Assembly: GCA_017626365.1 (NCBI GenBank)
Contig: JAGAIV010000036.1
Coordinates: 31,104-95,103 of the forward strand
DNA length: 64,000 nt
Direction of reading: 5' to 3'
Source: Clostridia bacterium
GTDB lineage: Bacteria > Bacillota > Clostridia > TANB77 > CAG-508
The position numbers were made by a program, and so were the translations under genes. This document shows positions 4,792 to 53,348 of this stretch, in pieces (the first letter of the stretch is position 1; each line of letters starts with the position of its first letter). Below the pieces are notes generated by a model. It was not told the origin of the DNA. It saw nothing but the letters and a program-made list of their open reading frames with translations, and searched no databases.

Positions 4792-7287
4792 ATGTTTCAA
4801 AATATACAAGGACAAGCTAGCTTTGGTGATGAATATGAAGAAACAGATTATAAAGAAAATAAAATAAAGAGATTTTTAAAAACGGCTATAACGCCTCAAA
4901 AAATATTAATATATATAGCAAGCTTTATGCTATCTACAATCGAGTGCGCAAGTGGAGTTGCACCATTTGCCATAGCAATATTTGCTGCATGCTTTTCAAA
5001 TCGTGTACCAGTTTTAATTGTTTATGTTTTAACATTACTTGGAAGTTTCATTGGACTAGGTGGATCTTCAACTCTTATGTACTTATTAACTTCACTTGTA
5101 TTTATTGTAATGACATTAATTTTTAAACCAAAAGAAGGTTTAGAATATGAAAATGAGCGATTAAAACTAGGAAAGTATGTATTTATATCCGCATTTTTAG
5201 TACAAGTTTCGAAAATATTCTTTGGGAATTTTATGGTATACGATTTACTAATGAGTGCGATGGTAGCAATATCTTCCTATATTTTCTATAAAATATTTGC
5301 CAATTCTATTATTGTTATAAATGAATTTGGAAAAAAGAAAGCATTCGCTATTGAAGAGGTAATAGGTGCAAGTATTTTACTTGCTATTTGTGCATCTAGT
5401 TTTCGAGGATTTGCAATATTTGGTTTTGAATTAAGAACAATATTAAGTATTCTAGTAGTATTAGTACTAGGGTGGAAAAATGGCGTTTTAGTAGGAGCAA
5501 CCTCAGGAATTACCATAGGAACCATTTTAGGATTAATTGGACAAGATGATCCTATTATGATAGCATCCTATGCACTATCAGGAATGATTGCAGGAATATT
5601 TTCAAGATTTGGAAAATTTGGAGTCATTATTGGATTTATTTTAGGAAATGCAATTTTAACTTATGTAACAAATGGAAATACAGCTTCAATTATATACTTT
5701 AAAGAAATATTAATTGCTTCATTAGGATTACTACTAGTGCCAGAAACTATTCAAATTGATATTGAAGAATTATTCGGAAAAGCAAAATTATTACAATCTG
5801 GACCTGCAAGTCGAATTGAAGAAAATAAAGAAACAGTATACAGGCTAAATAATGTATCTGAAACAATAGCAGATATTGCAGATACCTATAAAGAAGCAGC
5901 AGCTACAATTGTAGAAGACGAAGAAATTGAACAAAAAGAAAATCAAAAAATATTTGTAGATGAATTATTAGCTAATATGGATGGCTTTGAAGATAATATT
6001 CTATATGAAGATATCCAAAATATCGAAAATTCAGAAGTTTTAACTGACGTTTTTAAACTATTAATAGAAAACCAGAAAATAACAAGGAAAGATTTGTTAG
6101 ATATATTTGCAAGTCACAATAATTATATTGTGGGATTTGATAATGCAGAAGTAAGTATGCAACTAGAAAAAGATATTGAAAAAATTGTAAATGTAATAAA
6201 TGAATCATACCGCATTAGTAAAGTTAACTTTATTTGGAAACACAAAATGGATGAAAACAAGAAAACAATGGTAAATCAATTAGATGGAGTTTCTAAAGTA
6301 ATTTCTTCTTTAGCAAACGATATGGAAAAAAGAGAAAAAGAAGAAAATGAATTTATTATTGAAAAAGAAGAAATTTTAAAAATTGCAAAAGAACGAAAAA
6401 TTGATATGAAGGATGTAAAAATCCGAAGAGAAAAAACAGGAAGATATATTATTAATGTTTATGTAGATTCTTGTTGTGAAGAAAATGAAAAACGTGGTTG
6501 TACAATAGAAGCGGTAGAAAAAATTCTATCGAAAGTGTTGGAAGACAAAATTGTTATTCAAAAAAATAACTGTGGACAAAAGAAAGAAACCAACCTTTGT
6601 GTAAATACCTACGCATCACAAGATAGATACATGCTACAGCTTGGAATTTCAAGAAAAACAAAAGAAGGTTCACCAATTTCAGGAGATACCAGCAGTAGTT
6701 TAAAACTAGAAGATGGAAAATACTTACTTGCTATTAGTGATGGAATGGGAACAGGACCAAAAGCAAGACAAAGTAGTAAAATAGCAATTAAAATGTTAGA
6801 AAGATTACTAAGTAACGGATTTGATAAAGATAGTTCCATTGAACTAATTAATTCAACTTTATCTTCTGTAAATTCAGGAGAAGATGACACTTATGCAACA
6901 CTAGATATTGCCATTTTAGACTTATATGCAGGAAATATCGAATTCATAAAAAACGGGGCATGTCCGACTTATATTAAGCAAAATGGTAAGGTACAAATTA
7001 TAAAAGCATTATCTTTACCAGCAGGAATTTTAGAAAATATCAGCCTTGTCGTATACGACAAAGACATCGAAAATAATGATATTCTAGTCATGTGCTCTGA
7101 TGGTATCATGGAATCCAATGCAGAATATCAAAACAAAGAATTATGGGTAAGAGACATACTAGAAAGCATTGAAACTGACAATGTCCAAAAAATAGCAGAC
7201 ATCATCACGAAAGAAGCCATAGACAACGGATATGGACAAGTAAAAGACGACATGACCATAATTGTTGCAAAAATGATAAAAAGATAA
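4792..7287 (+). CDS. spoIIE: Stage II sporulation protein E (SpoIIE). It has an N-terminal polytopic membrane domain and a C-terminal PP2C phosphatase
   Basis: About 10 predicted TM helices, then PP2C motifs (GDTSSSL..ISDGMGTGPKA, CSDGIMES). The ATG at 4792 has RBS aagaggtgg 6 nt upstream; the track start 4783 is a GTG. Confidence 0.85.
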   Translation: MFQNIQGQASFGDEYEETDYKENKIKRFLKTAITPQKILIYIASFMLSTIECASGVAPFAIAIFAACFSNRVPVLIVYVLTLLGSFIGLGGSSTLMYLLTSLVFIVMTLIFKPKEGLEYENERLKLGKYVFISAFLVQVSKIFFGNFMVYDLLMSAMVAISSYIFYKIFANSIIVINEFGKKKAFAIEEVIGASILLAICASSFRGFAIFGFELRTILSILVVLVLGWKNGVLVGATSGITIGTILGLIGQDDPIMIASYALSGMIAGIFSRFGKFGVIIGFILGNAILTYVTNGNTASIIYFKEILIASLGLLLVPETIQIDIEELFGKAKLLQSGPASRIEENKETVYRLNNVSETIADIADTYKEAAATIVEDEEIEQKENQKIFVDELLANMDGFEDNILYEDIQNIENSEVLTDVFKLLIENQKITRKDLLDIFASHNNYIVGFDNAEVSMQLEKDIEKIVNVINESYRISKVNFIWKHKMDENKKTMVNQLDGVSKVISSLANDMEKREKEENEFIIEKEEILKIAKERKIDMKDVKIRREKTGRYIINVYVDSCCEENEKRGCTIEAVEKILSKVLEDKIVIQKNNCGQKKETNLCVNTYASQDRYMLQLGISRKTKEGSPISGDTSSSLKLEDGKYLLAISDGMGTGPKARQSSKIAIKMLERLLSNGFDKDSSIELINSTLSSVNSGEDDTYATLDIAILDLYAGNIEFIKNGACPTYIKQNGKVQIIKALSLPAGILENISLVVYDKDIENNDILVMCSDGIMESNAEYQNKELWVRDILESIETDNVQKIADIITKEAIDNGYGQVKDDMTIIVAKMIKR

Positions 7288-7292
7288 AATTT

Positions 7293-7326
7293 AAGGACGA
7301 AAGTAAAAGCTACTTTCGTCCTTTTT
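7293..7326 (+). terminator. Rho-independent terminator of spoIIE
   Basis: aaggacgaaagta-aaagc-tactttcgtcctt followed by ttttt. Confidence 0.8.
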
Positions 7327-7382
7327 AAGCCCTATTTAGCTAATGCGGCTGTCTGCAAAAGCAGACTGAAGGGTTCTAAAAG
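7327..7382 (+). repeat. GC-rich palindromic intergenic element, family 1 (unit C, degenerate)
   Basis: gccctatttagctaatgcggctgtctgcaaaagcagactgaagggttctaaaag. Aligns with the units at 10343..10389 and 36954..36997. Confidence 0.6.
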
Positions 7383-8995: not shown

Positions 8996-10231
8996 ATGGA
9001 ACTAAAGACAAAATACCAATATACGTATTTTATTTATCCATACATAATTCGCGAAAATAAGTATGATAAATATTTATTAAAATTATTAAATCATAAAAAT
9101 TGTAAAGTAAAATTCTTTGAAAAAGAAAAAGATATGGATTTATATACATACTTTTTACCTAAAATTAAAGAGTTTATGTTTCAAGGATTTGAATTTAGTA
9201 AAGATAAAATACGAAAGTTTGAAGAATTTAATAAAGAAATGCAAGCAATCATTCTATCTAGATATCCTGCTACGATATTTGAATACGATTTAGGAACAGA
9301 TATGCAAGGAAAAGCAGGAGAAGAAGAAGGAATATTCTTTCATATGCAAAAAATGCAAATAATATGTTTTAATACAGGAATTTGCTTTTTAGTAATGAAA
9401 ACAAATATTGAAGATAGTAATGATTTTCGAGATGTTTTAGACTTTAATTATAAATTTAGAGATATTTATTCAGAGCTAAATCAGTTAAAAAAATATGAAA
9501 ATATACGCTTACAAACTGCGACTTTTGGAGATGTAAAAAAATTAACAGATTTAATAAAAGAATTAACAGGGAATGTAGAAGATGCAAAAGCACTAAACAT
9601 TGATACAAACCGCTTTTTAACTTTTGCCTATACTTGTATAGAACAAGACGCTTGGAATGATGATAAACAATTTAAAGACATTGAATTTGAATTCTTTAAA
9701 TATGCTAATATTTTCCCAAGCTCTTACAAATCAAACTTTGATAAAAAACATATGGAAATACTTTCAAAATGGAAGTTTATTCGTACAGGATTTACTAAAG
9801 AAGGAGTAGGACTTTTAACTTCTAGCATTGATATTCATAATTACACAAAATTACCATACTTTTATGAAAATCAATACCTATACACCTATATCCTTGCACA
9901 ATACCAAAAAATATATTTAAAGAAATTAGAAAATGAAGCAAAAAATAAAAATATGACGCAACCAGCAAGGGAAAAATTCATAAAATTCACAAAAGAATTA
10001 TGGATAGGGGAAGTTACAAACGATGATGTAGGAACAAATATCTATAAAAAAACAAGACAAGTATGTGATGTACAAAAATTATATGAAGAAGTAAAAAATA
10101 AATTTGATATTGCCTATAAAGAGCTAAATATTGAAAAAGAAAGTAAAGTAAACAAAATTATTCTAGTAATACTAGGAATTTCTTTATTTCTAAATATAAT
10201 AAACTTTATAAGTTTATTAAATATGATGTAA
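8996..10231 (+). CDS. Hypothetical protein with a C-terminal TM anchor
   Basis: ORF with a good RBS (aagggag) and a C-terminal hydrophobic helix. No family recognised. Confidence 0.5.
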   Translation: MELKTKYQYTYFIYPYIIRENKYDKYLLKLLNHKNCKVKFFEKEKDMDLYTYFLPKIKEFMFQGFEFSKDKIRKFEEFNKEMQAIILSRYPATIFEYDLGTDMQGKAGEEEGIFFHMQKMQIICFNTGICFLVMKTNIEDSNDFRDVLDFNYKFRDIYSELNQLKKYENIRLQTATFGDVKKLTDLIKELTGNVEDAKALNIDTNRFLTFAYTCIEQDAWNDDKQFKDIEFEFFKYANIFPSSYKSNFDKKHMEILSKWKFIRTGFTKEGVGLLTSSIDIHNYTKLPYFYENQYLYTYILAQYQKIYLKKLENEAKNKNMTQPAREKFIKFTKELWIGEVTNDDVGTNIYKKTRQVCDVQKLYEEVKNKFDIAYKELNIEKESKVNKIILVILGISLFLNIINFISLLNMM

Positions 10232-10389
10232 GAACCCTCCGTCTCGCTTGCGCGAGCCACCTCCCTTAAATAAAGGAGGCTTTTCTCTATATTTCATAGA
10301 TACGACTACATGCTAGTGCTAAATTAAAATTAGTAGAGTAAAGGCCCCTTTACCTAAGGGGGCTGTCGCCGTTAGGCGACTGGGGGTTC
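10232..10389. repeat. Composite family-1 element: two inverted copies of the GC-rich unit at 10232..10280 and 10343..10389, flanking an AT-rich core
   Basis: The reverse complement of the left unit (gcctcctttatttaagggaggtggctcgcgcaagcgagacggagggttc) aligns with the right unit (ggcccctttacctaagggggctgtcgccgttaggcgactgggggttc). Each unit has two hairpins. Confidence 0.65.
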
Positions 10390-10404
10390 TAAGAGGAGAA
10401 CACT

Positions 10405-15273: not shown

Positions 15274-15369
15274 TGTAGGGGTCAATGCCCTCATCGACCC
15301 GTTTTCGTGAAATGTATAGTATAACAATACAAATTTAAAAACGGGTCGACGAAGGCGTCGACCCCTACA
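15274..15369. repeat. Family-2 GC-rich palindromic element. Two inverted GTAGGGGTCGAC hairpins flank a 40 nt AT-rich core, inserted between the RR and HK genes
   Basis: tgtaggggtcaatgccctcatcgacccgtttt ... aaaacgggtcgacgaaggcgtcgacccctaca. The arms are reverse complements with a few mismatches. Confidence 0.65.
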
Positions 15370-22877: not shown

Positions 22878-22926
22878 AAAGATGATTTTAGGTGGATGAT
22901 TTTTTCACCCGTCCCTAAAATCATTT
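22878..22926. repeat. Family-3 palindromic element (ATGATTTTAGGG...CCCTAAAATCAT), copy F1, lying between two divergent promoters
   Basis: aaagatgattttagg-tggatgattttttcaccc-gtccctaaaatcattt. The plus promoter TTGACA(22932)-17-TATAAT(22955) follows immediately. Confidence 0.6.
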
Positions 22927-24525: not shown

Positions 24526-24566
24526 ATATTGAATAAACAATAAAGGTAAGATATAATAAAAACGAA

Positions 24567-24593
24567 TGTAGGGGTCGACGACCTCGTCGACCC
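24567..24593. repeat. Family-2 hairpin, single copy (E)
   Basis: tgtaggggtcgacg-acct-cgtcgaccc. Same core as 15274..15369. Confidence 0.6.
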
Positions 24594-27476: not shown

Positions 27477-27560
27477 GGCAATTGCACTTTTCTAAGCGTG
27501 CTTTAGTCGAGCGTGAAAAGTCCAATTGCCAGCAAGATGGAGCGGACTCACAGCAATAAA
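27477..27560 (+). repeat. Family-4 conserved element of about 85 nt, copy 1, between dapF and dapL
   Basis: ggcaattgcacttttctaagcgtgctttagtcgagcgtgaaaagtccaattgccagcaagatggagcggactcacagcaataaa. About 80% identical to the reverse complement of 53266..53348. Confidence 0.6.
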
Positions 27561-27578
27561 ATAGAAAGAGGAGATATT

Positions 27579-28811
27579 ATGATAACCATAAATGAAAATT
27601 ATTTAAAATTACAAGATAGCTACCTATTTTCAACCATTGCAAAAAAAGTAGCAAAATTTCAGGAAGAAAATCCAGATAAAAAGGTAATTAAACTAGGCAT
27701 TGGAGATGTAACCTTACCGATTGCTCCAGCTGTAGGAGAAGCAATAAAAAGAGCAACCGACGAAATGTTAAAAAAAGAAACATTTAGAGGATATGGACCA
27801 GAGCAAGGATATGATTTCTTAAGAGAAAAAATTGCAAAGCAGGATTATGAAAAAATAGGAGTTACAATAGACAAAGACGAAATATTTGTATCAGACGGAG
27901 CAAAATGTGATACGGGAAATATTGGAGAAATTTTTGGAACGGATAATATAATTGCAATTACTGACCCAGTTTACCCAGTATACCTTGATACCAACATCAT
28001 GGCAGGAAGAACGGGAAATTATGACAAAGAAACAGACAAATATGAAAAAGTAGTATATATGCCGGCAACAGCAGAAAATAACTTTACTCCAGAATTACCT
28101 AAAGAAAAAGTAGATATGATATATTTATGTTTTCCCAATAACCCAACAGGAACTGTCTTAAATAAAGACGAACTTGCAAAATGGGTTGCTTATGCAAAAG
28201 AAAACAAAGCCATTATTTTATTTGATGGAGCATATGAAGCATTTATTACAGAAGAAAACGTACCACATAGCATTTATGAAATAGAGGGAGCAAAAGAAGT
28301 TGCAATTGAATTCAGAAGTCTTTCTAAAACTGCAGGATTCACAGGAGTAAGGTGTGCCTATACAGTTGTTCCAAAAGAGCTAAAGGCATATACAAATTCG
28401 GGTGAAGAAATAAATTTAAATCGCTTATGGAATCGTAGACAATGTACAAAATTTAATGGAGTACCATACATAACGCAAAGAGCAGCAGAAGCGATTTACT
28501 CAGAAGAAGGACAAAAGCAAATCAAAGAAAACATTAATTACTACCAAGAAAATGCTAGCATTATATTAGAAGGATTAAAAGAAGCGGGCTATACTGTATT
28601 TGGAGGGAAAAATGCACCATACATTTGGCTTAAAGTACCAAACGGATATACCTCATGGGAATTCTTTGACTATCTACTAGAAAAAGCAAATGTAGTAGGA
28701 ACTCCAGGAGTTGGATTCGGACCAAGTGGAGAAGGATATTTCAGATTAACTGCTTTTGGTTCAAAAGAAAACACAATAGAAGCAATTGAAAGAATTAAAA
28801 ACTTAAAATAA
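27579..28811 (+). CDS. dapL: LL-diaminopimelate aminotransferase (DapL type)
   Basis: N-terminal (M)[23 protein letters not shown] plus a PLP-aminotransferase fold with the SKT lysine. RBS agaggag precedes the ATG at 27579. Confidence 0.8.
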
Positions 28812-35599: not shown

Positions 35600-35637
35600 A
35601 AAATGATTTTAGGGGTAGTCCCTAAAATCATTTTTTT
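35600..35637 (+). terminator. Family-3 palindrome, minimal copy F2, acting as a rho-independent terminator
   Basis: aaaatgattttagggg-ta-gtccctaaaatcatt followed by tttttt. Confidence 0.75.
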
Positions 35638-35737: not shown

Positions 35738-36184
35738 ATGGTTTCAAAAGCATTAGAAGAGTACTTAAAAACAATGTATGTTTTAAAACAACAAAATGGA
35801 AAAATACGAGTAACGGATATTGCTGAAAAAATGAATTGTACCAAGCCTAGTGTGAATAAGGCAATTTACAATTTGAAAGATAATGGTTTATTAAATTATG
35901 AATCTTATGGAACAATCGAATTAACCAAAGAAGGAGAAAACTTAGCAAAAAAGATATTAGAAGCCTATGATATTGTATATTTATTTGTAAAAGATGTCTT
36001 AAACTTAGATGAGAAAGAAGCACAAAAAGAAGCTGAAAAAATAAAATCAGTGATAGCAGATGATACAATTAATCAATTAGCTAGGTATGTCCATAAAGTT
36101 CTTGGATTAAATCGCCTAGATTGTGATTATGATATTAATAAAGAAAAATGTAGATGTTGTGCAAGAAGAGTATCTACGAAATAA
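35738..36184 (+). CDS. DtxR/MntR-family metal-dependent transcriptional regulator with a C-terminal Cys-rich tail
   Basis: N-terminal ALEEYLKTMYVL..VTDIAEKMN.TKPSV is a DtxR-like HTH. The C-terminus ..CDYDINKEKCRCC is unusual. It sits directly upstream of the suf genes. Confidence 0.7.
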   Translation: MVSKALEEYLKTMYVLKQQNGKIRVTDIAEKMNCTKPSVNKAIYNLKDNGLLNYESYGTIELTKEGENLAKKILEAYDIVYLFVKDVLNLDEKEAQKEAEKIKSVIADDTINQLARYVHKVLGLNRLDCDYDINKEKCRCCARRVSTK

Positions 36185-36206
36185 TGAAACAAGAAAGGAA
36201 ATTAAC

Positions 36207-36947
36207 ATGAGTAACAAACTATTAGAAATAAAAGATTTATATGTAAATGCAGAGGATAAAGAAATTTTAAAAGGAATTAATTTAAGCATTAATAAAGGAG
36301 AAATCCATGTTATTATGGGACCAAACGGTTCTGGTAAAACAACAACAGCAAATGCTATCTTAAATAATCCTATTTATACAAAACAAAAAGGTAGTATTGA
36401 ATTTGAAGGACAAGATATTACAAACTTAAAAACAGATGAAATTGCAAGAAATGGAATCTTTATGTCTTTTCAATTGCCAGAGGAAATCCCAGGAGTTTCT
36501 GTAACGAATTTCTTAAAATATGCCAAAAACAAAGTAACAGGAAAACCAGTAAAAATATTTGAATTTAAGAACGAACTAAAGAAATATATGGAAGAGTTAA
36601 ATATGAATCCGAAAAATATGGAAAGAAGTTTAAATGTTGGATTTTCTGGTGGAGAAAAAAAGAAAAATGAAATTTTACAAATGCTAGTGTTAAATCCAAA
36701 ACTTGCTATATTAGATGAAACCGATTCCGGACTTGATGTTGATGCTATCAAAACGGTATCTAAGGGAATTGAAATGTTTAAAAACAAAAAGAATGCTGTT
36801 TTAATCATTACCCATAATACTAAGATTTTGCATAGCTTAAAAGTTGATTATGTACATGTTTTAGTAGACGGAAAAATCGTAAAAACAGGTTCACAAGAAC
36901 TAGCAAAGGAAATCGAAGAAAACGGTTACGCCAAATATAAACAGTAG
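36207..36947 (+). CDS. sufC: Fe-S cluster assembly ATPase SufC
   Basis: MSNKLLEIKDLYV..GPNGSGKTT. RBS aaggaa precedes the ATG at 36207. The track start 36123 is a GTG overlapping the upstream regulator gene. Confidence 0.85.
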   Translation: MSNKLLEIKDLYVNAEDKEILKGINLSINKGEIHVIMGPNGSGKTTTANAILNNPIYTKQKGSIEFEGQDITNLKTDEIARNGIFMSFQLPEEIPGVSVTNFLKYAKNKVTGKPVKIFEFKNELKKYMEELNMNPKNMERSLNVGFSGGEKKKNEILQMLVLNPKLAILDETDSGLDVDAIKTVSKGIEMFKNKKNAVLIITHNTKILHSLKVDYVHVLVDGKIVKTGSQELAKEIEENGYAKYKQ

Positions 36948-36953
36948 AGAAAA

Positions 36954-36997
36954 GGCCCATTTACTTAAGGGGGCTGTCGCGAAGCGACTGGGGGTTC
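36954..36997 (+). repeat. Family-1 GC-rich element, single unit B
   Basis: ggcccatttacttaagggggctgtcgcgaagcgactgggggttc. Confidence 0.65.
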
Positions 36998-37038
36998 TAA
37001 AAAGAGAAAAATTAAACAAGGAGAGGAATTTTAAAGCA

Positions 37039-38439
37039 ATGGCAAAAACAAAACTAGACGAAATAAATAGAAATATCTATGACATCAAAAATAAAGATGA
37101 ATATGATTTTAAAATAAAAAAAGGACTAACTCCGGAAATTATAGAAGAAATATCAAAGCAAAAAGATGACCCACAGTGGATGAGAGAGTTTAGACTGAAA
37201 GCGTTAGAAGTATATAACAAATTAGAACTTCCTACTTGGGGACCAGACTTATCAGAACTTGATATGAATGAAATTGCTACCTATGTAAGACCAAAAACTT
37301 CCTTAAACAGTTCTTGGGAGGATGTGCCAGAAGATATTAAAAACACCTTTGACAAATTAGGAATACCAGAAGCAGAAAAAGAGTCTCTTGCAGGAGTAGG
37401 AGCACAATACGATTCTGAAGTGGTTTACCATAGTATGAAACAAGAGCTAATTAAGCAAGGGGTTATTTATACCGATATGGAAAGTGCCCTTAAAAAATAT
37501 CCGGACTTAGTAAAAGAACATTTTATGAAATGTGTGCCTGTTTATGACCATAAATTTGTAGCATTACATGGAGCAGTTTGGTCGGGTGGTTCCTTTGTAT
37601 ATGTTCCAAAAGGAGTAAAAGTGGATATCCCACTTCAATCTTATTTTAGGCTAAATTCACCAGAATCTGGGCAATTTGAACATACACTTATTATTGTAGA
37701 CGAGGGAGCAAGTCTTCATTTTATTGAAGGATGTAGTGCACCAAAATATAATAAGGTAAACTTGCATGCAGGTTGTGTAGAGTTATATGTAAAAGACAAT
37801 GCATATTTACGATATTCTACCATAGAGAACTGGTCTAAAAATATGTTAAACTTAAATACCAAAAAAGCAATTGTAGGGAAAAATGCAAAAATGGATTGGG
37901 TGAGTGGTTCCTTTGGTTCAAAAATATCAATGTTATACCCAATGAGTATTTTAAATGGAGAAGGAGCAAAAACAGAATATACAGGAATTTCTTTTGCAGG
38001 AAAAGGACAAAATTTAGATAATGGATTTAAAGTAGTTCATAATGCAAAAAATACTTCTAGTGTTGTAAATGCAAAATCAATTTCCAAAAATGGGGGAAAA
38101 TGTACGTACCGTTCTTTAGTAAGAATTAATGAAAATGCTGCAAGTTCTAAATCAAGCGTATCTTGTGAATCATTAATGCTAGACGATATTTCCGTTTCTG
38201 ATACGATACCTGTAAATGATATTAGAACTGATGAAGTTGAATTCTCACACGAAGCAAAAATTGGAAAAATCAGTGATAAAACAATCTTTTATTTAATGAG
38301 TAGAGGCTTATCAGAAGAAGATGCCAAAGCAATGATTGTAAGAGGATTTGCTTATCCAATTTCAAAAGAATTGCCAGTAGAATATGCTGTAGAAATGAAT
38401 AATTTAATTAACTTAGAATTGGAGGGTGCGATTGGATAA
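37039..38439 (+). CDS. sufB: Fe-S cluster assembly protein SufB
   Basis: 466 aa with strong SufB similarity throughout. Confidence 0.9.
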   Translation: MAKTKLDEINRNIYDIKNKDEYDFKIKKGLTPEIIEEISKQKDDPQWMREFRLKALEVYNKLELPTWGPDLSELDMNEIATYVRPKTSLNSSWEDVPEDIKNTFDKLGIPEAEKESLAGVGAQYDSEVVYHSMKQELIKQGVIYTDMESALKKYPDLVKEHFMKCVPVYDHKFVALHGAVWSGGSFVYVPKGVKVDIPLQSYFRLNSPESGQFEHTLIIVDEGASLHFIEGCSAPKYNKVNLHAGCVELYVKDNAYLRYSTIENWSKNMLNLNTKKAIVGKNAKMDWVSGSFGSKISMLYPMSILNGEGAKTEYTGISFAGKGQNLDNGFKVVHNAKNTSSVVNAKSISKNGGKCTYRSLVRINENAASSKSSVSCESLMLDDISVSDTIPVNDIRTDEVEFSHEAKIGKISDKTIFYLMSRGLSEEDAKAMIVRGFAYPISKELPVEYAVEMNNLINLELEGAIG

Positions 38440-39514: not shown

Positions 39515-40736
<1,222 letters not shown>

Positions 40737-43775: not shown

Positions 43776-45518
43776 ATGAAAAAAATACTATCAAAGATAA
43801 TTAAAAAATATTGGTTTGCAATATTGATGCAAATTATATTTATAGGATTAAACATTTATTTTCTAACATATCCACCTAAAATTATAGGAAATATTGTTGA
43901 TTTGTTATATAACGTAGAAGAAAACCGTAATGCAATTATGATGCAAATATGGTACTTGTTAGGAATTTGTGTTGTTTTGCTTGCTGTTCGTATGCCATGG
44001 AGATGGCTTACAGGGTATACTCCAAGAAGTATAGAAAGAGATTTAAAAGATAAACTATTTGAACAATTTATGAGAATAAAAATGACAAGTCTTCAAAACA
44101 TAAAAAATGGAGAACTTATGTCATATTTTGTAAAAGATATATCAGAAATTAGACAATTCATTTACCGTTTATTATCTTATGGAACAAGATTTGTATTCAC
44201 AGTAATTATTGCAACTTATGCAATGATGAGTGGTGTCAATGTTAAATTAACATTAGTAACATTATGTCCGATTATTGTAACAATTTTTTTAATTATAAAA
44301 ATAAAAGAATATGTAGAAAGCAGTTTTCGTAAATCACAAAAGTATTTTACGGAATTATCTGAATACGTACAAGAAAGTACAGATGCGATTCGTACAACAA
44401 AAGCATATACTGGTGAAATGAACCAATTAAAAGAATTTATTAGGAAAAATCGCAAATTAAGAGAGGCAAATAATGCAGTAGATGTGCATTCTACTTTACT
44501 TTCTACATGTCTTAATATATGTTTTGGTTTATGTTATGGTATTTCATTATTATATGGCTCTAAATTAGTATTAGAAGGAACTATCACGACAGGAGATTTT
44601 GTAGCATTTAATGGATATATTGGATTATTTGTAGGACCAGTAACTTGGCTTCCAGGAATTATTTCAAGATACAAAAGAGCAAAACTTTCTTACCAAAGAC
44701 TAGATAATGTATTTAGTCTAGAAAGAGAAAAAATAAATGTAAAAACAGAAGATAAAGAGGATGATTTTAAGGGAAACATTGAAATTAAAGACTTAAGTTT
44801 TAACTATCCAGAAAATATAGAAATGGTATTAAATCATATTAATCTAAAAATAAATAAAGGAGAAACTCTTGGAATTATTGGAACCATAGGAAGTGGAAAA
44901 ACAACACTTATGAATTTATTGTTACGCCTATATCCTGTACCAAATGGAAAAATTCAAATCGATGGAAAAGACATTAATGATATACCTTTATTAACATTAA
45001 GAAAGCATATTTGCTATATTACACAAGATAATTTCTTATTTTCAACATCATTAAAAGAAAATATAAAATTATTTAAAGAAGGGATTGAAGATGAACAAAT
45101 AAAAGAAAGTACAAAAAATGCTATGATATATGATGATATTGAAAAGATGCAAAATGGTATTGAAACCATTATCGGAGAAAGAGGAGTTGACCTATCTGGT
45201 GGACAAAAACAAAGAGTAGTGATATCAAGAGCGTTCCTAAATAAAAGTAAAGTTGTTATTTTTGATGATACTTTCTCAGCATTAGATAATAGAACTGAGC
45301 AGATGGTATTAAATAATGTGAAAAAATTAGTAAAAGATAAAACTTGTATCATTATTTCAAATCGTATATCTGATATTAGAGATGCAGATCAAATTATCGT
45401 ATTAGATGGTGGAAATATTATTGAAAGTGGAACACATGAAAGCTTATTAAAAGAACAAGGAAGATACTACAATTTTTACAAAGAACAAACAGCAAAATCG
45501 CAAATGGCTTTAAACTGA
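43776..45518 (+). CDS. ABC exporter (permease + ATPase), partner 1 of a second pair
   Basis: TM domain plus an NBD with GTIGSGKTT, LSGGQKQR and IFDD. Confidence 0.8.
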   Translation: MKKILSKIIKKYWFAILMQIIFIGLNIYFLTYPPKIIGNIVDLLYNVEENRNAIMMQIWYLLGICVVLLAVRMPWRWLTGYTPRSIERDLKDKLFEQFMRIKMTSLQNIKNGELMSYFVKDISEIRQFIYRLLSYGTRFVFTVIIATYAMMSGVNVKLTLVTLCPIIVTIFLIIKIKEYVESSFRKSQKYFTELSEYVQESTDAIRTTKAYTGEMNQLKEFIRKNRKLREANNAVDVHSTLLSTCLNICFGLCYGISLLYGSKLVLEGTITTGDFVAFNGYIGLFVGPVTWLPGIISRYKRAKLSYQRLDNVFSLEREKINVKTEDKEDDFKGNIEIKDLSFNYPENIEMVLNHINLKINKGETLGIIGTIGSGKTTLMNLLLRLYPVPNGKIQIDGKDINDIPLLTLRKHICYITQDNFLFSTSLKENIKLFKEGIEDEQIKESTKNAMIYDDIEKMQNGIETIIGERGVDLSGGQKQRVVISRAFLNKSKVVIFDDTFSALDNRTEQMVLNNVKKLVKDKTCIIISNRISDIRDADQIIVLDGGNIIESGTHESLLKEQGRYYNFYKEQTAKSQMALN

Positions 45519-52676: not shown

Positions 52677-52757
52677 AAAAGATGATTTTAGGGACGGAGG
52701 AATCAACTTCTTAAATGAAGGATGATTTTTTCTTCCGTCTCTAAAATCATCTTTTTT
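52677..52757. repeat. Family-3 palindromic element, long copy F3, acting as a bidirectional terminator
   Basis: gatgattttagggacggagg ... cttccgtctctaaaatcatc + tttttt. An inner stem encloses the loop GATGATTTTTT, which is also present in F1. Confidence 0.65.
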
Positions 52758-53247
52758 AACTAAACATAGCACCAACAGCACCAAATACTCCGAAGGAAGC
52801 AAGTCCCATAATGATACCTGCTAGAATAACACCAGACATAACAGCTATTACACTCTTTTTAAAATCCATATCTAAAAAGCTTGCAGCAAGCGTTCCTGTC
52901 CAAGCACCTGTGCCAGGAAGTGGGATTCCAACAAAAAGGAATAAAGCAACATATAAACCGCGTCCTGCAGTTTCTTGTAATTTCTTACCACCTTTTTCAC
53001 CTTTTTCTAAACAAAAAGTAAAGAATTTTCCGATGAATTTCTTATCTGCACCCCATTCTAATACTTTTCTTGCAAAGAAAAAGATGAATGGAACAGGAAG
53101 CATATTTCCGATAATACAAGTAATATAAAGTGGTAGTAGTGGGAGAGGGTCACCAAAAGCTTGGCTTAATCCAATAGGTACAGCTCCTCTAAGTTCAATA
53201 AGTGGTACCATAGATACTAAAAAAACGATCAAATATTTTTTAAACAT
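52756..53247 (-). CDS. COG2426-like small polytopic membrane protein (putative small multidrug export family)
   Basis: Four TM helices. RBS taggagg precedes the ATG at 53247. The track start 53301 is an upstream in-frame Met inside the leader. Confidence 0.6.
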   Translation of the reverse strand: MFKKYLIVFLVSMVPLIELRGAVPIGLSQAFGDPLPLLPLYITCIIGNMLPVPFIFFFARKVLEWGADKKFIGKFFTFCLEKGEKGGKKLQETAGRGLYVALFLFVGIPLPGTGAWTGTLAASFLDMDFKKSVIAVMSGVILAGIIMGLASFGVFGAVGAMFS

Positions 53248-53265
53248 AAAAATCCTCCTAAAAAT

Positions 53266-53348
53266 AGTTACTGCTATGAGTTCGCCAAATCTTGCTGTCA
53301 ATTGGACTTTTCACGCTTGACTAAAGTACGCTTGAGACATGTGCAATT
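53266..53348 (-). repeat. Family-4 conserved element of about 85 nt, copy 2, in the 5' leader of the COG2426 gene
   Basis: Minus-strand sense is ..ttaattgcacatgtctcaagcgtactttagtcaagcgtgaaaagtccaattgacagcaagatttggcgaactcatagcagtaa.. Confidence 0.6.

What the first reader, a model, noticed from the sequence alone, without database searches (positions are those of the whole stretch)
10232..10389. Family-1 GC-rich double-hairpin element (GGCCCnTTTAnnTAAGGGGGC-hairpin-GGGGGTTCTAA) in three loci, once as an inverted pair
Units lie at 7327..7382, 36954..36997 and 10343..10389, plus an inverted copy at 10232..10280. Each is about 45 to 55 nt and strongly GC-rich in an AT-rich genome. Each carries two hairpins. 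The second stem differs by compensatory changes between copies: gtcgcc/ggcgac, gtcgc/gcgac and gtctgc/gcagac. All direct copies sit 15 to 80 nt upstream of a start codon (the WG-repeat gene, acpS, sufB) and end in GGGTTCTAA[A/G]AG(GAG). At acpS the element supplies the SD sequence. The 158-bp composite at 10232..10389 looks like a MITE with 48-bp terminal inverted repeats. I do not recognise the family. It could be a REP/BOX-like mobile repeat or a structured cis-RNA
Basis: seen in the sequence. Interest (0 to 1): 0.6.

Follow-up and report, generated by a model that had tools for sequence, protein, structure and literature searches.

The report
Clostridial GC-rich hairpin repeat family
The GC-rich double-hairpin units are real, but they are copies of a lineage-specific family of small interspersed DNA repeats (like REP/BIME elements or miniature transposons) that come and go between genes in a group of uncultured gut Clostridia, not a gene-regulating RNA.

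Summary
A degenerate pattern finds exactly the four reported copies in the window, against 0 expected by chance. Profile searches add none.

There are two unit types:
- alpha: AAAGGCCCC-TTTAYYTAA-GGGGGCT-GTC[variable stem]GAC-TGGGGGTTCTWA
- beta: GCCTCC/GGGAGGT/GGAGGGTTCTTA

The 10229-10392 composite is one beta and one alpha placed head to head. The same architecture recurs 57 times in 114 stretches from 15 uncultured Clostridia MAGs. Beta is never solo.

The evidence favours an interspersed DNA repeat over a cis-RNA:
- Solo alpha lies sense or antisense to flanking genes equally often (36:34).
- Orthologous sites are filled in one genome and empty in another.
- The same site can hold alpha, alpha+beta, alpha+long-beta or a different repeat.
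- Copies sit inside the suf operon in both orientations.
- The tail's reverse complement (TAAGAACCC/TAGAACCC) becomes the upstream gene's stop codon in about a third of antisense copies.
- Hairpin 2 covaries, but with Watson-Crick pairs almost only. Hairpin 1 has just two haplotypes.

No Rfam, phage, plasmid or literature match was found, no target-site duplication, and no cognate transposase.

Verdict: an undescribed member of a known kind (REP/BIME- or MITE-like). Moderate interest.

The parts
10229..10295 (-). Beta unit, read on the minus strand. Its parts in + coordinates: tail TAAGAACCCTCCGTC at 10229-10243, where 10229-10231 is also the TAA stop of ORF 8996..10231; hairpin 2 at 10241-10258; hairpin 1 (GCCTCCTTT/AAGGGAGGT) at 10259-10280; head ATAGAGAAAA at 10281-10290.
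   Evidence: nhmmer beta profile, E=1.7e-20. Pattern match. Sequence. ORF end.
10296..10327 (.). Spacer between the two heads of the composite. It corresponds to the ...TTCAAAATAACT..GCTAGTCTAAAA... spacer of related composites, here diverged.
   Evidence: Comparison of 22 composites. blastn of 10229-10392 aligns full-length to more than 30 loci.
10328..10392 (+). Alpha unit (copy B). Head AGTAGAGT at 10332-10339; hairpin 1 at 10343-10364; hairpin 2 GTCGCC-GTTA-GGCGAC at 10365-10380; tail TGGGGGTTCTAA at 10381-10392. The acpS SD (10393-10398) and ATG (10405) follow but are outside the element.
   Evidence: nhmmer alpha profile, E=1.4e-20. Fold. Tail consensus. acpS by Pfam.
36940..37000 (+). 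Solo alpha unit (copy C) between sufC and sufB. The TAG inside its head CAGTAGAG (36945-36947) serves as the sufC stop codon. Hairpin 1 at 36954-36975; hairpin 2 GTCGC-GAA-GCGAC at 36976-36988; tail at 36989-37000.
   Evidence: nhmmer, E=2.5e-17. ORF 36123..36947 is an ABC ATPase and 37039..38439 is SufB. Orthologous loci L016 and L079 lack it and carry a 320-nt segment instead.
7325..7379 (+). Degenerate solo alpha unit (copy A) after the spoIIE terminator and 80 nt upstream of the WG-repeat gene. Hairpin 1 has decayed. Hairpin 2 GTCTGC-AAAA-GCAGAC (7351-7366) and tail TGAAGGGTTCTAA (7367-7379) are intact.
   Evidence: nhmmer, E=1.3e-8. Sequence. Flanking genes by Pfam. Terminator at 7293-7323.

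Best explanation
These are copies of a lineage-specific family of short, GC-rich, hairpin-forming interspersed DNA repeats. They are non-autonomous elements of the REP/BIME or miniature-transposon kind.

Anatomy. The basic unit, alpha, is about 63 nt:
- a head, (A)GTAGAG-N-AAA;
- hairpin 1, with a fixed sequence;
- hairpin 2, with a constant GTC...GAC frame, 2-4 freely varying but paired base pairs, and a G-N-A or G-N-N-A loop;
- a tail, TGGGGGTTCT(T/A)A.
A second unit type, beta, has the same plan, but its stem 1 and tail are changed together (CCTCC/GGAGG instead of CCCC/GGGG). Beta occurs only head to head with an alpha, giving a 140-185-bp composite with outward-facing AGAACCC...GGGTTCT ends.

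Shown. Units and composites are gained, lost and exchanged at intergenic sites. They sit next to gene ends, and the stop codons carried at both element ends let an element abut or replace a gene's stop codon.

Inferred. Spread is catalysed in trans by an enzyme that recognises the folded top strand as single-stranded DNA (HUH/Y1-type, as for REP/RAYT or IS200/IS605). No cognate enzyme was found.

Effect on the host (inferred). The elements are transcribed passively inside mRNAs, where the hairpins may stabilise or weakly attenuate transcripts. They are not strong terminators and not ligand- or gene-specific regulators.
For: Multiplicity and restriction to one clade:
- At least 114 stretches in 15 Clostridia MAGs.
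- 160 alpha and 74 beta profile hits; 57 alpha+beta head-to-head composites; 91 solo alpha; no solo beta.
- At least 31 alpha plus about 25 beta in one MAG, a lower bound.
- None in 330 kb from 80 loci of more distant relatives (AcpS 53-69% identical).

Insertion/deletion dynamics:
- Window sites 38435/38439, 40733/40741 and 45516/45540 are empty, while L016, L079/L011/L016 and L075 carry alpha there. L079 carries a different GTAG-REP at the first site.
- L034 has a composite where L082 is empty, with 96% identical flanks.
- L023 has an alpha where L035 is empty.
- One locus holds alpha, alpha+beta or alpha+long-beta in L105, L109 and L007.

Orientation independence:
- Solo alpha is 36 sense: 34 antisense.
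- Copies occur inside the suf operon in both orientations.

Stop-codon fusion:
- 22 of 63 antisense alpha copies overlap the upstream stop by 1-2 nt.
- The tail consensus is GGGTTC-T-T/A-A.

Hairpin 2:
- 93 distinct sequences in 171 copies, with 563 WC, 4 G-T and 4 A-C pairs.
- 3 of 6 pairs show double changes; 0 of 500 shuffles reach the observed score.

Single-strand (top-strand) clues:
- Loops are GAA, GTA, GGA or GNNA on one strand only.
- No target-site duplication.

Repeat-induced assembly breaks.
Against: - No transposase gene flanked by alpha/beta ends was found in about 0.97 Mb of held sequence.
- The only Y1/RAYT-like gene, in L077, is borderline (PF01797 20.9 bits against a cutoff of 23) and is flanked by a different repeat, GTAGGGGCGAGC....
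- Solo units show no orientation bias relative to gene direction, used here as a proxy for replication direction. IS200/IS605-type elements often do show such a bias.
- The empty sites do not give one clean rule for the junction. L082 has 3-5 nt that are missing from the filled site.
- Orthologous copies evolve at about the rate of their flanks (94.3% against 93.9% identity). Recent activity is therefore not shown.
- All hosts are MAGs, and no expression data exist.
Confidence: 0.8

Rival explanations
1. Cut-and-paste MITE. The composite is an internally deleted derivative of a DDE-type insertion sequence, and its terminal inverted repeats (TAAGAACCC[C/T]C[A/C]GTC) are bound as double-stranded DNA. 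Solo alpha units would be half-elements left by deletion.
For: - Composites have outward-facing, near-identical ends AGAACCC...GGGTTCT.
- A 'mini' variant consists of just the two ends around a short palindrome: TAAGAACCCCCAGTC[..]GACTGGGGGTTCTTA.
- Solo alpha units of one lineage stop at the central CTTCGAAG of the composite.
- A composite with an internal deletion exists in L095.
Against: - No target-site duplication of 2-8 bp at 38 composites beyond shuffled expectation.
- None at 75 solo units (16-18 adjacent against 7-17 in controls).
- No autonomous copy or orphan end next to a transposase gene.
- The two arms are systematically different types.
- A dsDNA-binding model does not explain the strand-specific G-N-A loops or the strict maintenance of the stem 2 palindrome.
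Confidence: 0.2
2. Host-selected RNA module at gene 3' ends. Read in reverse orientation, the unit begins at the stop codon and ends in hairpin 1 followed by a U-rich tract. It would act as an intrinsic terminator or as a 3' stabiliser of the upstream mRNA, and that function explains its abundance.
For: - The reverse strand of alpha is flagged as terminator-like (CCCCTTAGGTAAAGGGG CCTTTACTCT at 10361-10345).
- Many lineage-2 copies have GGGGCC followed by T5-7.
- 22 of 63 antisense alpha copies start exactly at the stop codon.
- Composites prefer alpha-reverse next to the upstream gene (39:15).
Against: - Half of the solo units are in the other orientation, which has no U tract (36:34).
- Reverse-oriented copies lie inside the suf operon between sufB/sufD and sufS/sufU in L016, L079 and L011. 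A real terminator there would cut off downstream suf genes.
- The stem is only 5-6 bp with a 9-nt loop.
- G-U pairs, expected in RNA helices, are almost absent from the variable stem (4 of 606, equal to A-C).
Confidence: 0.12
3. Cis-regulatory 5' UTR RNA. The unit is a structured leader or riboswitch that controls the downstream gene, with the CCCC/CCUCC strand switching between the mid strand and the tail next to the SD.
For: - In the window all three direct copies lie 12-80 nt upstream of start codons.
- The 5' strand of hairpin 1 can pair with either the mid strand or the tail, and both change together between alpha and beta.
- 21 of 50 sense copies end 12-47 nt before a start codon.
Against: - Downstream genes are unrelated (a WG-repeat protein, acpS, sufB; hisS-flanking copies in L070).
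- There is no orientation bias.
- Sites are empty in close relatives.
- Hairpin 1 shows no covariation beyond one alpha/beta split, and singletons are uncompensated.
- No Rfam match even at E<=10.
- The SD lies outside the element.
Confidence: 0.03

Closest known systems
REP / BIME / REPIN elements of Proteobacteria (mobilised by RAYT, TnpA_REP)
   Same: - Short GC-rich extragenic palindromes in tens to hundreds of copies.
- Found mostly between co-directional genes and just after stop codons.
- Two sequence types paired in inverted orientation with a characteristic linker, like the Y/Z REPs of E. coli BIMEs and like REPIN doublets.
- Hairpin kept by compensatory changes.
- No target-site duplication.
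- A GTAG motif in the head of many copies.
- The host clade does encode a RAYT-like gene.
   Different: - The unit has two hairpins and is 55-68 nt, not 20-40.
- The GTAG lies 7 nt from the stem and is absent in whole lineages of the family.
- The RAYT-like gene found is flanked by another repeat, GTAGGGG+palindrome.
- The host is an AT-rich Firmicute clade. The survey of tagged REPs I read (PMC3733652) does not mention Clostridia or Firmicutes.
MITEs such as Correia/NEMIS (Neisseria), RUP and BOX (Streptococcus pneumoniae)
   Same: - A 140-185-bp non-coding composite with inverted ends.
- Modular build (alpha, beta, spacer, optional 55-nt insert), recalling boxA-B-C.
- Intergenic location.
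- Co-transcription with neighbouring genes is likely.
- Causes assembly breaks.
   Different: - No TA or other target-site duplication.
- The arms are two distinct unit types.
- Single arms are abundant on their own.
- No parent insertion sequence was identified.
IS200/IS605-derived palindrome-associated elements (PATEs)
   Same: - Sub-terminal hairpins.
- No terminal duplication of the target.
- A strand-specific hairpin signature.
- An AAAG + GCCCC-stem motif that recalls the IS608 left-end hairpin. This resemblance is from my memory and was not tested.
   Different: - IS200/IS605 ends carry hairpins in direct, not inverted, orientation.
- No TnpA or TnpB was found nearby.
- No single conserved target tetranucleotide emerges: after the tail, TTAA occurs 32 times, TTAC 20 and TAAA 15.

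Membership tests
REP/REPIN (RAYT-mobilised) | Short (20-40 bp) imperfect palindrome in high copy number in extragenic DNA | tested here: inconclusive
   High copy number and extragenic location are met. The unit, however, is a 55-68-nt double hairpin rather than a single 20-40-bp palindrome.
REP/REPIN (RAYT-mobilised) | GTAG (or CGTC) tetranucleotide directly at the 5' foot of the palindrome | tested here: not met
   GTAGAG occurs in the head of one lineage but 7 nt from the stem. Other lineages have ...TATAAAAAGGCCCC with no GTAG.
REP/REPIN (RAYT-mobilised) | Inverted doublets with a conserved spacer | tested here: met
   57 head-to-head alpha+beta pairs with lineage-specific conserved spacers.
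REP/REPIN (RAYT-mobilised) | Cognate single-copy RAYT gene flanked by the same repeats | tested here: not met
   The only Y1-like ORF in the held loci (L077 6844-7350, PF01797 E=4e-4) is flanked by GTAGGGGCGAGCATTGCTCGTCC, not by alpha/beta. Only about 0.97 Mb was searched, so absence from the genomes is not proven.
MITE (DDE transposon derivative) | Terminal inverted repeats on a short non-coding element | tested here: met
   Composite ends are TAAGAACCC[T/C]C[C/A]GTC ... GAC[T/G]G[G/A]GGGTTCTTA. A mini variant consists of the ends alone.
MITE (DDE transposon derivative) | Target-site duplication flanking the element | tested here: not met
   No excess of 2-8-bp direct repeats at 38 composites or 75 solo units.
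MITE (DDE transposon derivative) | A related autonomous IS with the same ends | tested here: not met
   No orphan end next to a coding region and no long cargo between the hairpins. No match in plasmid, phage or viral collections. Whole genomes could not be scanned.
Riboswitch / structured 5' leader | Fixed orientation upstream of a coherent gene set, covariation in several helices, and a match to a described family | tested here: not met
   Orientation is 36:34. Neighbouring genes are unrelated. Only stem 2 covaries. Rfam gives no match.
Intrinsic terminator | GC-rich stem followed directly by a U tract, located at operon ends | tested here: inconclusive
   The reverse strand of alpha passes a simple terminator scan. 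The forward strand has no U tract, and reverse copies lie inside the suf operon.

The most novel reading that the evidence does not exclude
Alpha and beta units may be substrates of an unidentified single-strand-DNA (HUH/Y1-like) mobilisation system in Firmicutes. In this reading the stem-1 strand and the cleavage-proximal tail act as a matched guide/target pair: CCCC with GGGGG in alpha, CCTCC with GGAGG in beta. That would explain why two 'allelic' unit types coexist and always pair as heterodimers. A further possibility is that the hosts have co-opted stop-codon-abutting copies for 3'-end RNA control.
Probability: 0.15. Interest if true: 0.55.

Novelty: new member of a known kind. Interest (0 to 1): 0.33.

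Why it matters
REP/BIME-type repeats have been studied almost only in Proteobacteria. A heterodimeric, two-hairpin family in AT-rich gut Clostridia would widen the known range of such elements.

It would also give a marker for strain typing and for assembly breaks in gut MAGs.

It offers a natural data set of filled and empty sites, stop-codon capture and a rapidly varying but always paired stem. That data set could be used to study how small palindromic elements spread and how they reshape gene ends and operon spacers.

For annotation, it warns against calling these units riboswitches, terminators or sRNAs.

Tried and rejected
- Rfam. Gathering thresholds on the whole window gave 0 hits. E-value mode around the composite and around a long-beta copy gave only chance matches to miRNA and plastid families.
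- Literature. Searching for six element strings returned only unrelated papers. Searches on REP/RAYT/MITE with Clostridium gave reviews but no such family.
- Other collections. Viral contigs gave 0 matches. Plasmids gave none. Phages gave one 30-nt chance hit.
- Outer helix. A head GTAGAG / tail TTCTAC pairing appears in single-sequence folds. It is not general, because tails are mostly TTCTTA/TTCTAA, so I rejected it.
- Target-site duplications. Three anecdotal 7-9-bp AT-rich duplications, 39 comparisons did not survive controls.
- RAYT link. The RAYT-like gene belongs to another repeat family.
- Autonomous parent. I looked for hairpin 1 and the tail separated by cargo, and for orphan ends. 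I found only a 55-nt nested insert (long beta) and mini variants. The stem inside the 55-nt insert shows no compensation when its copies are compared by eye (sequences).
- Extra conservation. Element identity among orthologues is 94.3% against 93.9% for flanks, so there is no sign of special purifying selection.
- The acpS locus. Exact-protein look-up returned only the same strain and contigs broken at the repeat. More distant AcpS loci carry no element at all.

Full report
OBSERVATION

The four units are in the sequence. A degenerate pattern covering hairpin 1's loop and 3' strand, the frame of hairpin 2 and the tail matches exactly four places in the window: 7335-7377+, 10231-10274-, 10349-10390+ and 36960-36998+. 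None of 100 shuffles gave a match. Profile HMMs built from about 145 related copies recover the same four and nothing else: 10328-10392+, 36940-37000+, 7325-7379+ (weak, hairpin 1 decayed) and 10229-10295-.

Neighbouring genes:
- Copy A lies between spoIIE and a WG-repeat gene.
- The composite lies between an unannotated 411-aa ORF and acpS.
- Copy C lies between sufC and sufB.

ANATOMY: TWO UNIT TYPES AND A RECURRENT HETERODIMER

All are from 15 uncultured Clostridia/Clostridium MAGs. Listing the copies shows two types:
- Alpha: AAAGGCCCC-TTTAYYTAA-GGGGGCT-GTC[variable]GAC-TGGGGGTTCT.
- Beta: AAAGCCTCC-TTTAYYTAA-GGGAGGT-GGC[variable]GAC-GGAGGGTTCT.

The three direct copies in the window are alpha. 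The inverted one is beta.

With profile searches over the 114 loci plus the window there are 160 alpha and 74 beta hits. Of these, 57 are head-to-head alpha+beta pairs and 91 are solo alpha. There are no solo beta units. The 158-bp composite in the window is thus the standard heterodimer. Its tails (AGAACCC...GGGTTCT) face outward, and a lineage-specific spacer lies between the heads.

Variants:
- A long beta carries a conserved 55-nt insert between its two hairpins.
- One lineage has the loop TTTAACAA and tail-to-tail dimers.
- A 'mini' form is made of the two tails around a short palindrome.

One MAG (MGBC121045) holds at least 31 alpha and about 25 beta units in the 24 stretches retrieved. 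The window density, 4 per 64 kb, suggests on the order of 100 per genome. That figure is my extrapolation.

STRUCTURE AND COVARIATION

Hairpin 2 has a constant GTC...GAC frame, 2-4 variable base pairs and a short loop.
- Among 171 parsed copies there are 93 distinct sequences.
- Pairs are 563 Watson-Crick, 4 G-T, 4 A-C and 35 other. The 35 are almost all a fixed G x A at the second pair.
- On a gapless alignment of 46 alpha units, 3 of the 6 pairs of helix 2 show changes on both sides (34 cells). No shuffle out of 500 reaches the observed covariation score, and slid controls collapse.

Hairpin 1 is different.
- It has only two haplotypes: alpha GGCCCC/GGGGCT with tail TGGG, and beta GCCTCC/GGAGGT with tail GGAG.
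- Singleton changes are not compensated.

The tail repeats the 3' strand of hairpin 1, so the CCCC/CCTCC strand could pair with either. This is one alpha/beta event, not repeated covariation.

Two features bear on RNA versus DNA:
- G-U pairs are as rare as A-C in the variable stem.
- The loop is G-N-A (GAA 28, GTA 12, GGA 4) or G-N-N-A on one strand only.

From established knowledge, C-GNA-G triloops are unusually stable in single-stranded DNA. The strand asymmetry cannot come from mRNA-level selection, because half the copies would be transcribed as the other strand (see the next section). I read this as a hint that the folded top DNA strand matters. This is inference.

POSITION, ORIENTATION AND TURNOVER

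Solo alpha units between co-directional genes are 36 sense and 34 antisense. Composites prefer alpha-reverse next to the upstream gene (39:15).

In antisense copies the tail's reverse complement, TAAGAACCC or TAGAACCC, overlaps the upstream ORF's stop codon by 1-2 nt in 22 of 63 cases. The window's beta does this for ORF 8996..10231. At the other end, the TAG in the head CAGTAGAG is the stop of sufC in the window.

Orthologous comparisons show turnover.
- The window is empty at sufB/sufD, where L016 has alpha-reverse and L079 has a different GTAG-tagged repeat.
- The window is empty at sufS/sufU, where L079, L011 and L016 have alpha-reverse. There the stop changes from TAG to TAA-GAACCC and one codon is lost. 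L075 has an unrelated 230-bp TIR element at that site.
- The window is empty at 45516/45540, where L075 has alpha-reverse and TGA becomes TAG-AACCC.
- With 96% identical flanks, L034 carries a composite where L082 has TTATAA-AAT-TAAAAAAG.
- L023 carries an alpha where L035 has TTTCT-TTCCATG.
- One locus has alpha, alpha+beta or alpha+long-beta in three related genomes. Another has a composite, a long-beta composite or an internally deleted composite.
- Blocks of near-identity between genomes begin or end at the element. This suggests the elements serve as recombination end points. That is inference.

No target-site duplication is detectable.

Orthologous copies diverge about as fast as their flanks.

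Independent short-read assemblies break exactly at the head of alpha upstream of acpS.

More distant relatives (AcpS 53-69% identical; 80 loci, 330 kb) have no copy at all. Neither do viral, phage or plasmid collections.

WHAT IT IS AND HOW IT MOST LIKELY WORKS

Shown: this is a clade-restricted, multi-copy, modular family of intergenic DNA repeats. Copies are gained, lost and exchanged. They tolerate both orientations, sit inside operons and can donate stop codons to the neighbouring gene.

Inferred: the units are non-autonomous mobile elements propagated in trans. The absence of target duplications, the strictly Watson-Crick palindrome and the strand-specific G-N-A loop favour a single-strand, hairpin-recognising enzyme (HUH/Y1, as for REP/RAYT and IS200/IS605) over a DDE cut-and-paste enzyme.

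No cognate gene was found. The one RAYT-like ORF in the held loci is flanked by a different repeat, GTAGGGG plus a palindrome, which is also present in the window.

The rapid yet always paired change of stem 2 could come from selection for transposition-competent hairpins, from hairpin-templated correction of quasi-palindromes, or from gene conversion between copies. The data do not separate these.

RIVALS

- Regulatory 5' leader. Rejected on orientation, unrelated downstream genes, empty orthologous sites, lack of covariation in hairpin 1 and no Rfam match. The SD of acpS lies outside the element consensus.
- Terminator or stabiliser. The reverse strand of alpha looks terminator-like. But half of the solo copies face the other way, and reverse copies lie between suf genes. 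At most this is a side effect.
- DDE-type MITE. It keeps some weight because of the clear inverted ends and the mini variant. It lacks target duplications and a parent element.

COMPARISON WITH KNOWN FAMILIES AND NOVELTY

The closest analogues are E. coli BIMEs and REPINs: two REP types paired in inverted orientation, extragenic, often just after stop codons. Modular MITEs such as Correia and BOX also resemble it.

The family fails the defining GTAG-at-the-foot and cognate-RAYT tests for REPs. It also fails the target-duplication and parent-IS tests for MITEs. I therefore file it as an undescribed member of the general kind 'small interspersed palindromic repeats', not as a member of either family. 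I found no description of it.

It is a solid finding but one of moderate interest. The heterodimer rule, the stop-codon capture and the single-strand signature are the points worth following.

Noticed in passing
window 40575-40590 (sufS, ORF 39515..40627, continuing to about 40736); also L011, L016, L075, L079: sufS is split by a +1 frame change just before the catalytic loop. The 0 frame reads ...VRS-RK and soon stops. The +1 frame reads [13 protein letters not shown]... to the normal C-terminus. The same extra base at the same site (CGY-UCW-C-GGA-AAY) is present in all five genomes compared, which are roughly 70-86% identical by blastn, and third-codon-position variation fits 0 frame before and +1 frame after the site. 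The 0-frame codon at the site is CGG, used only 2 times in 18,317 codons of the window's long ORFs. This is a candidate programmed +1 ribosomal frameshift at a near-unassigned codon. One keyword search of the paper library returned nothing relevant.
   Followed up: partly
window 27494-27559 (+ strand leader) and 53268-53333 (- strand leader): A 66-nt repeat, 86% complementary between the two places, lies directly upstream of two unrelated genes in the sense orientation of each. One is a class I/II aminotransferase (27576..28811). The other is a Sm_multidrug_ex family protein (52756..53253, minus strand). It looks like a shared 5' leader. There is no Rfam match at E<=1.
   Followed up: partly
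window 15274-15305 / 15338-15369 and 24565-24593; L077 6760-7215; L079 about 5040-5075: A second GC-rich family has a classical REP shape: GTAG directly followed by a palindrome (TGTAGGGGTCGACGAAGGCGTCGACCCCTACA). It occurs as an inverted pair in the window. In L077 it occurs once inside and once just downstream of a RAYT-like (Y1_Tnp, borderline) ORF. In L079 it occupies the very site where L016 has an alpha unit.
   Followed up: partly
window 22894-22924, 35601-35631, 52720-52750: A third short repeat family, GGATGATTTT..(C)CGTCCCTAAAATCAT, has three copies, two of them 90% identical (D11).
   Followed up: no
L075 825-1085: A 230-bp element with its own terminal inverted repeats (TTAGTCTAAATATAGTAC ... 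TACTATATTTTAGACTAA) lies between sufS and sufU in MGBC121045. Its ends resemble the GCTAGTCTAAAA-AGTAGAG head extension of alpha units, which hints at shared modules between repeat families.
   Followed up: no
L007 2583-2699, L014 2901-3018, L037 6850-6972, L048 2366-2488 and others: The long beta variant carries a conserved 55-nt insert (TTAAGATAGCTGTTARCGAACGTTAGTGAGCGTTACAGATATCTTAT) between hairpins 1 and 2. It is itself bounded by an inverted repeat TAAGATAGCTGT/ACAGATATCTTA, as if one small palindromic element were nested in another. In L014 and L059 a GTAG-REP is nested in the spacer of the composite.
   Followed up: partly
L116, L117, L118 position 1: Three independent Logan assemblies of the same strain all end at AAGGCCCC, the first base of alpha hairpin 1 upstream of acpS. 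The repeat breaks short-read assemblies.
   Followed up: yes
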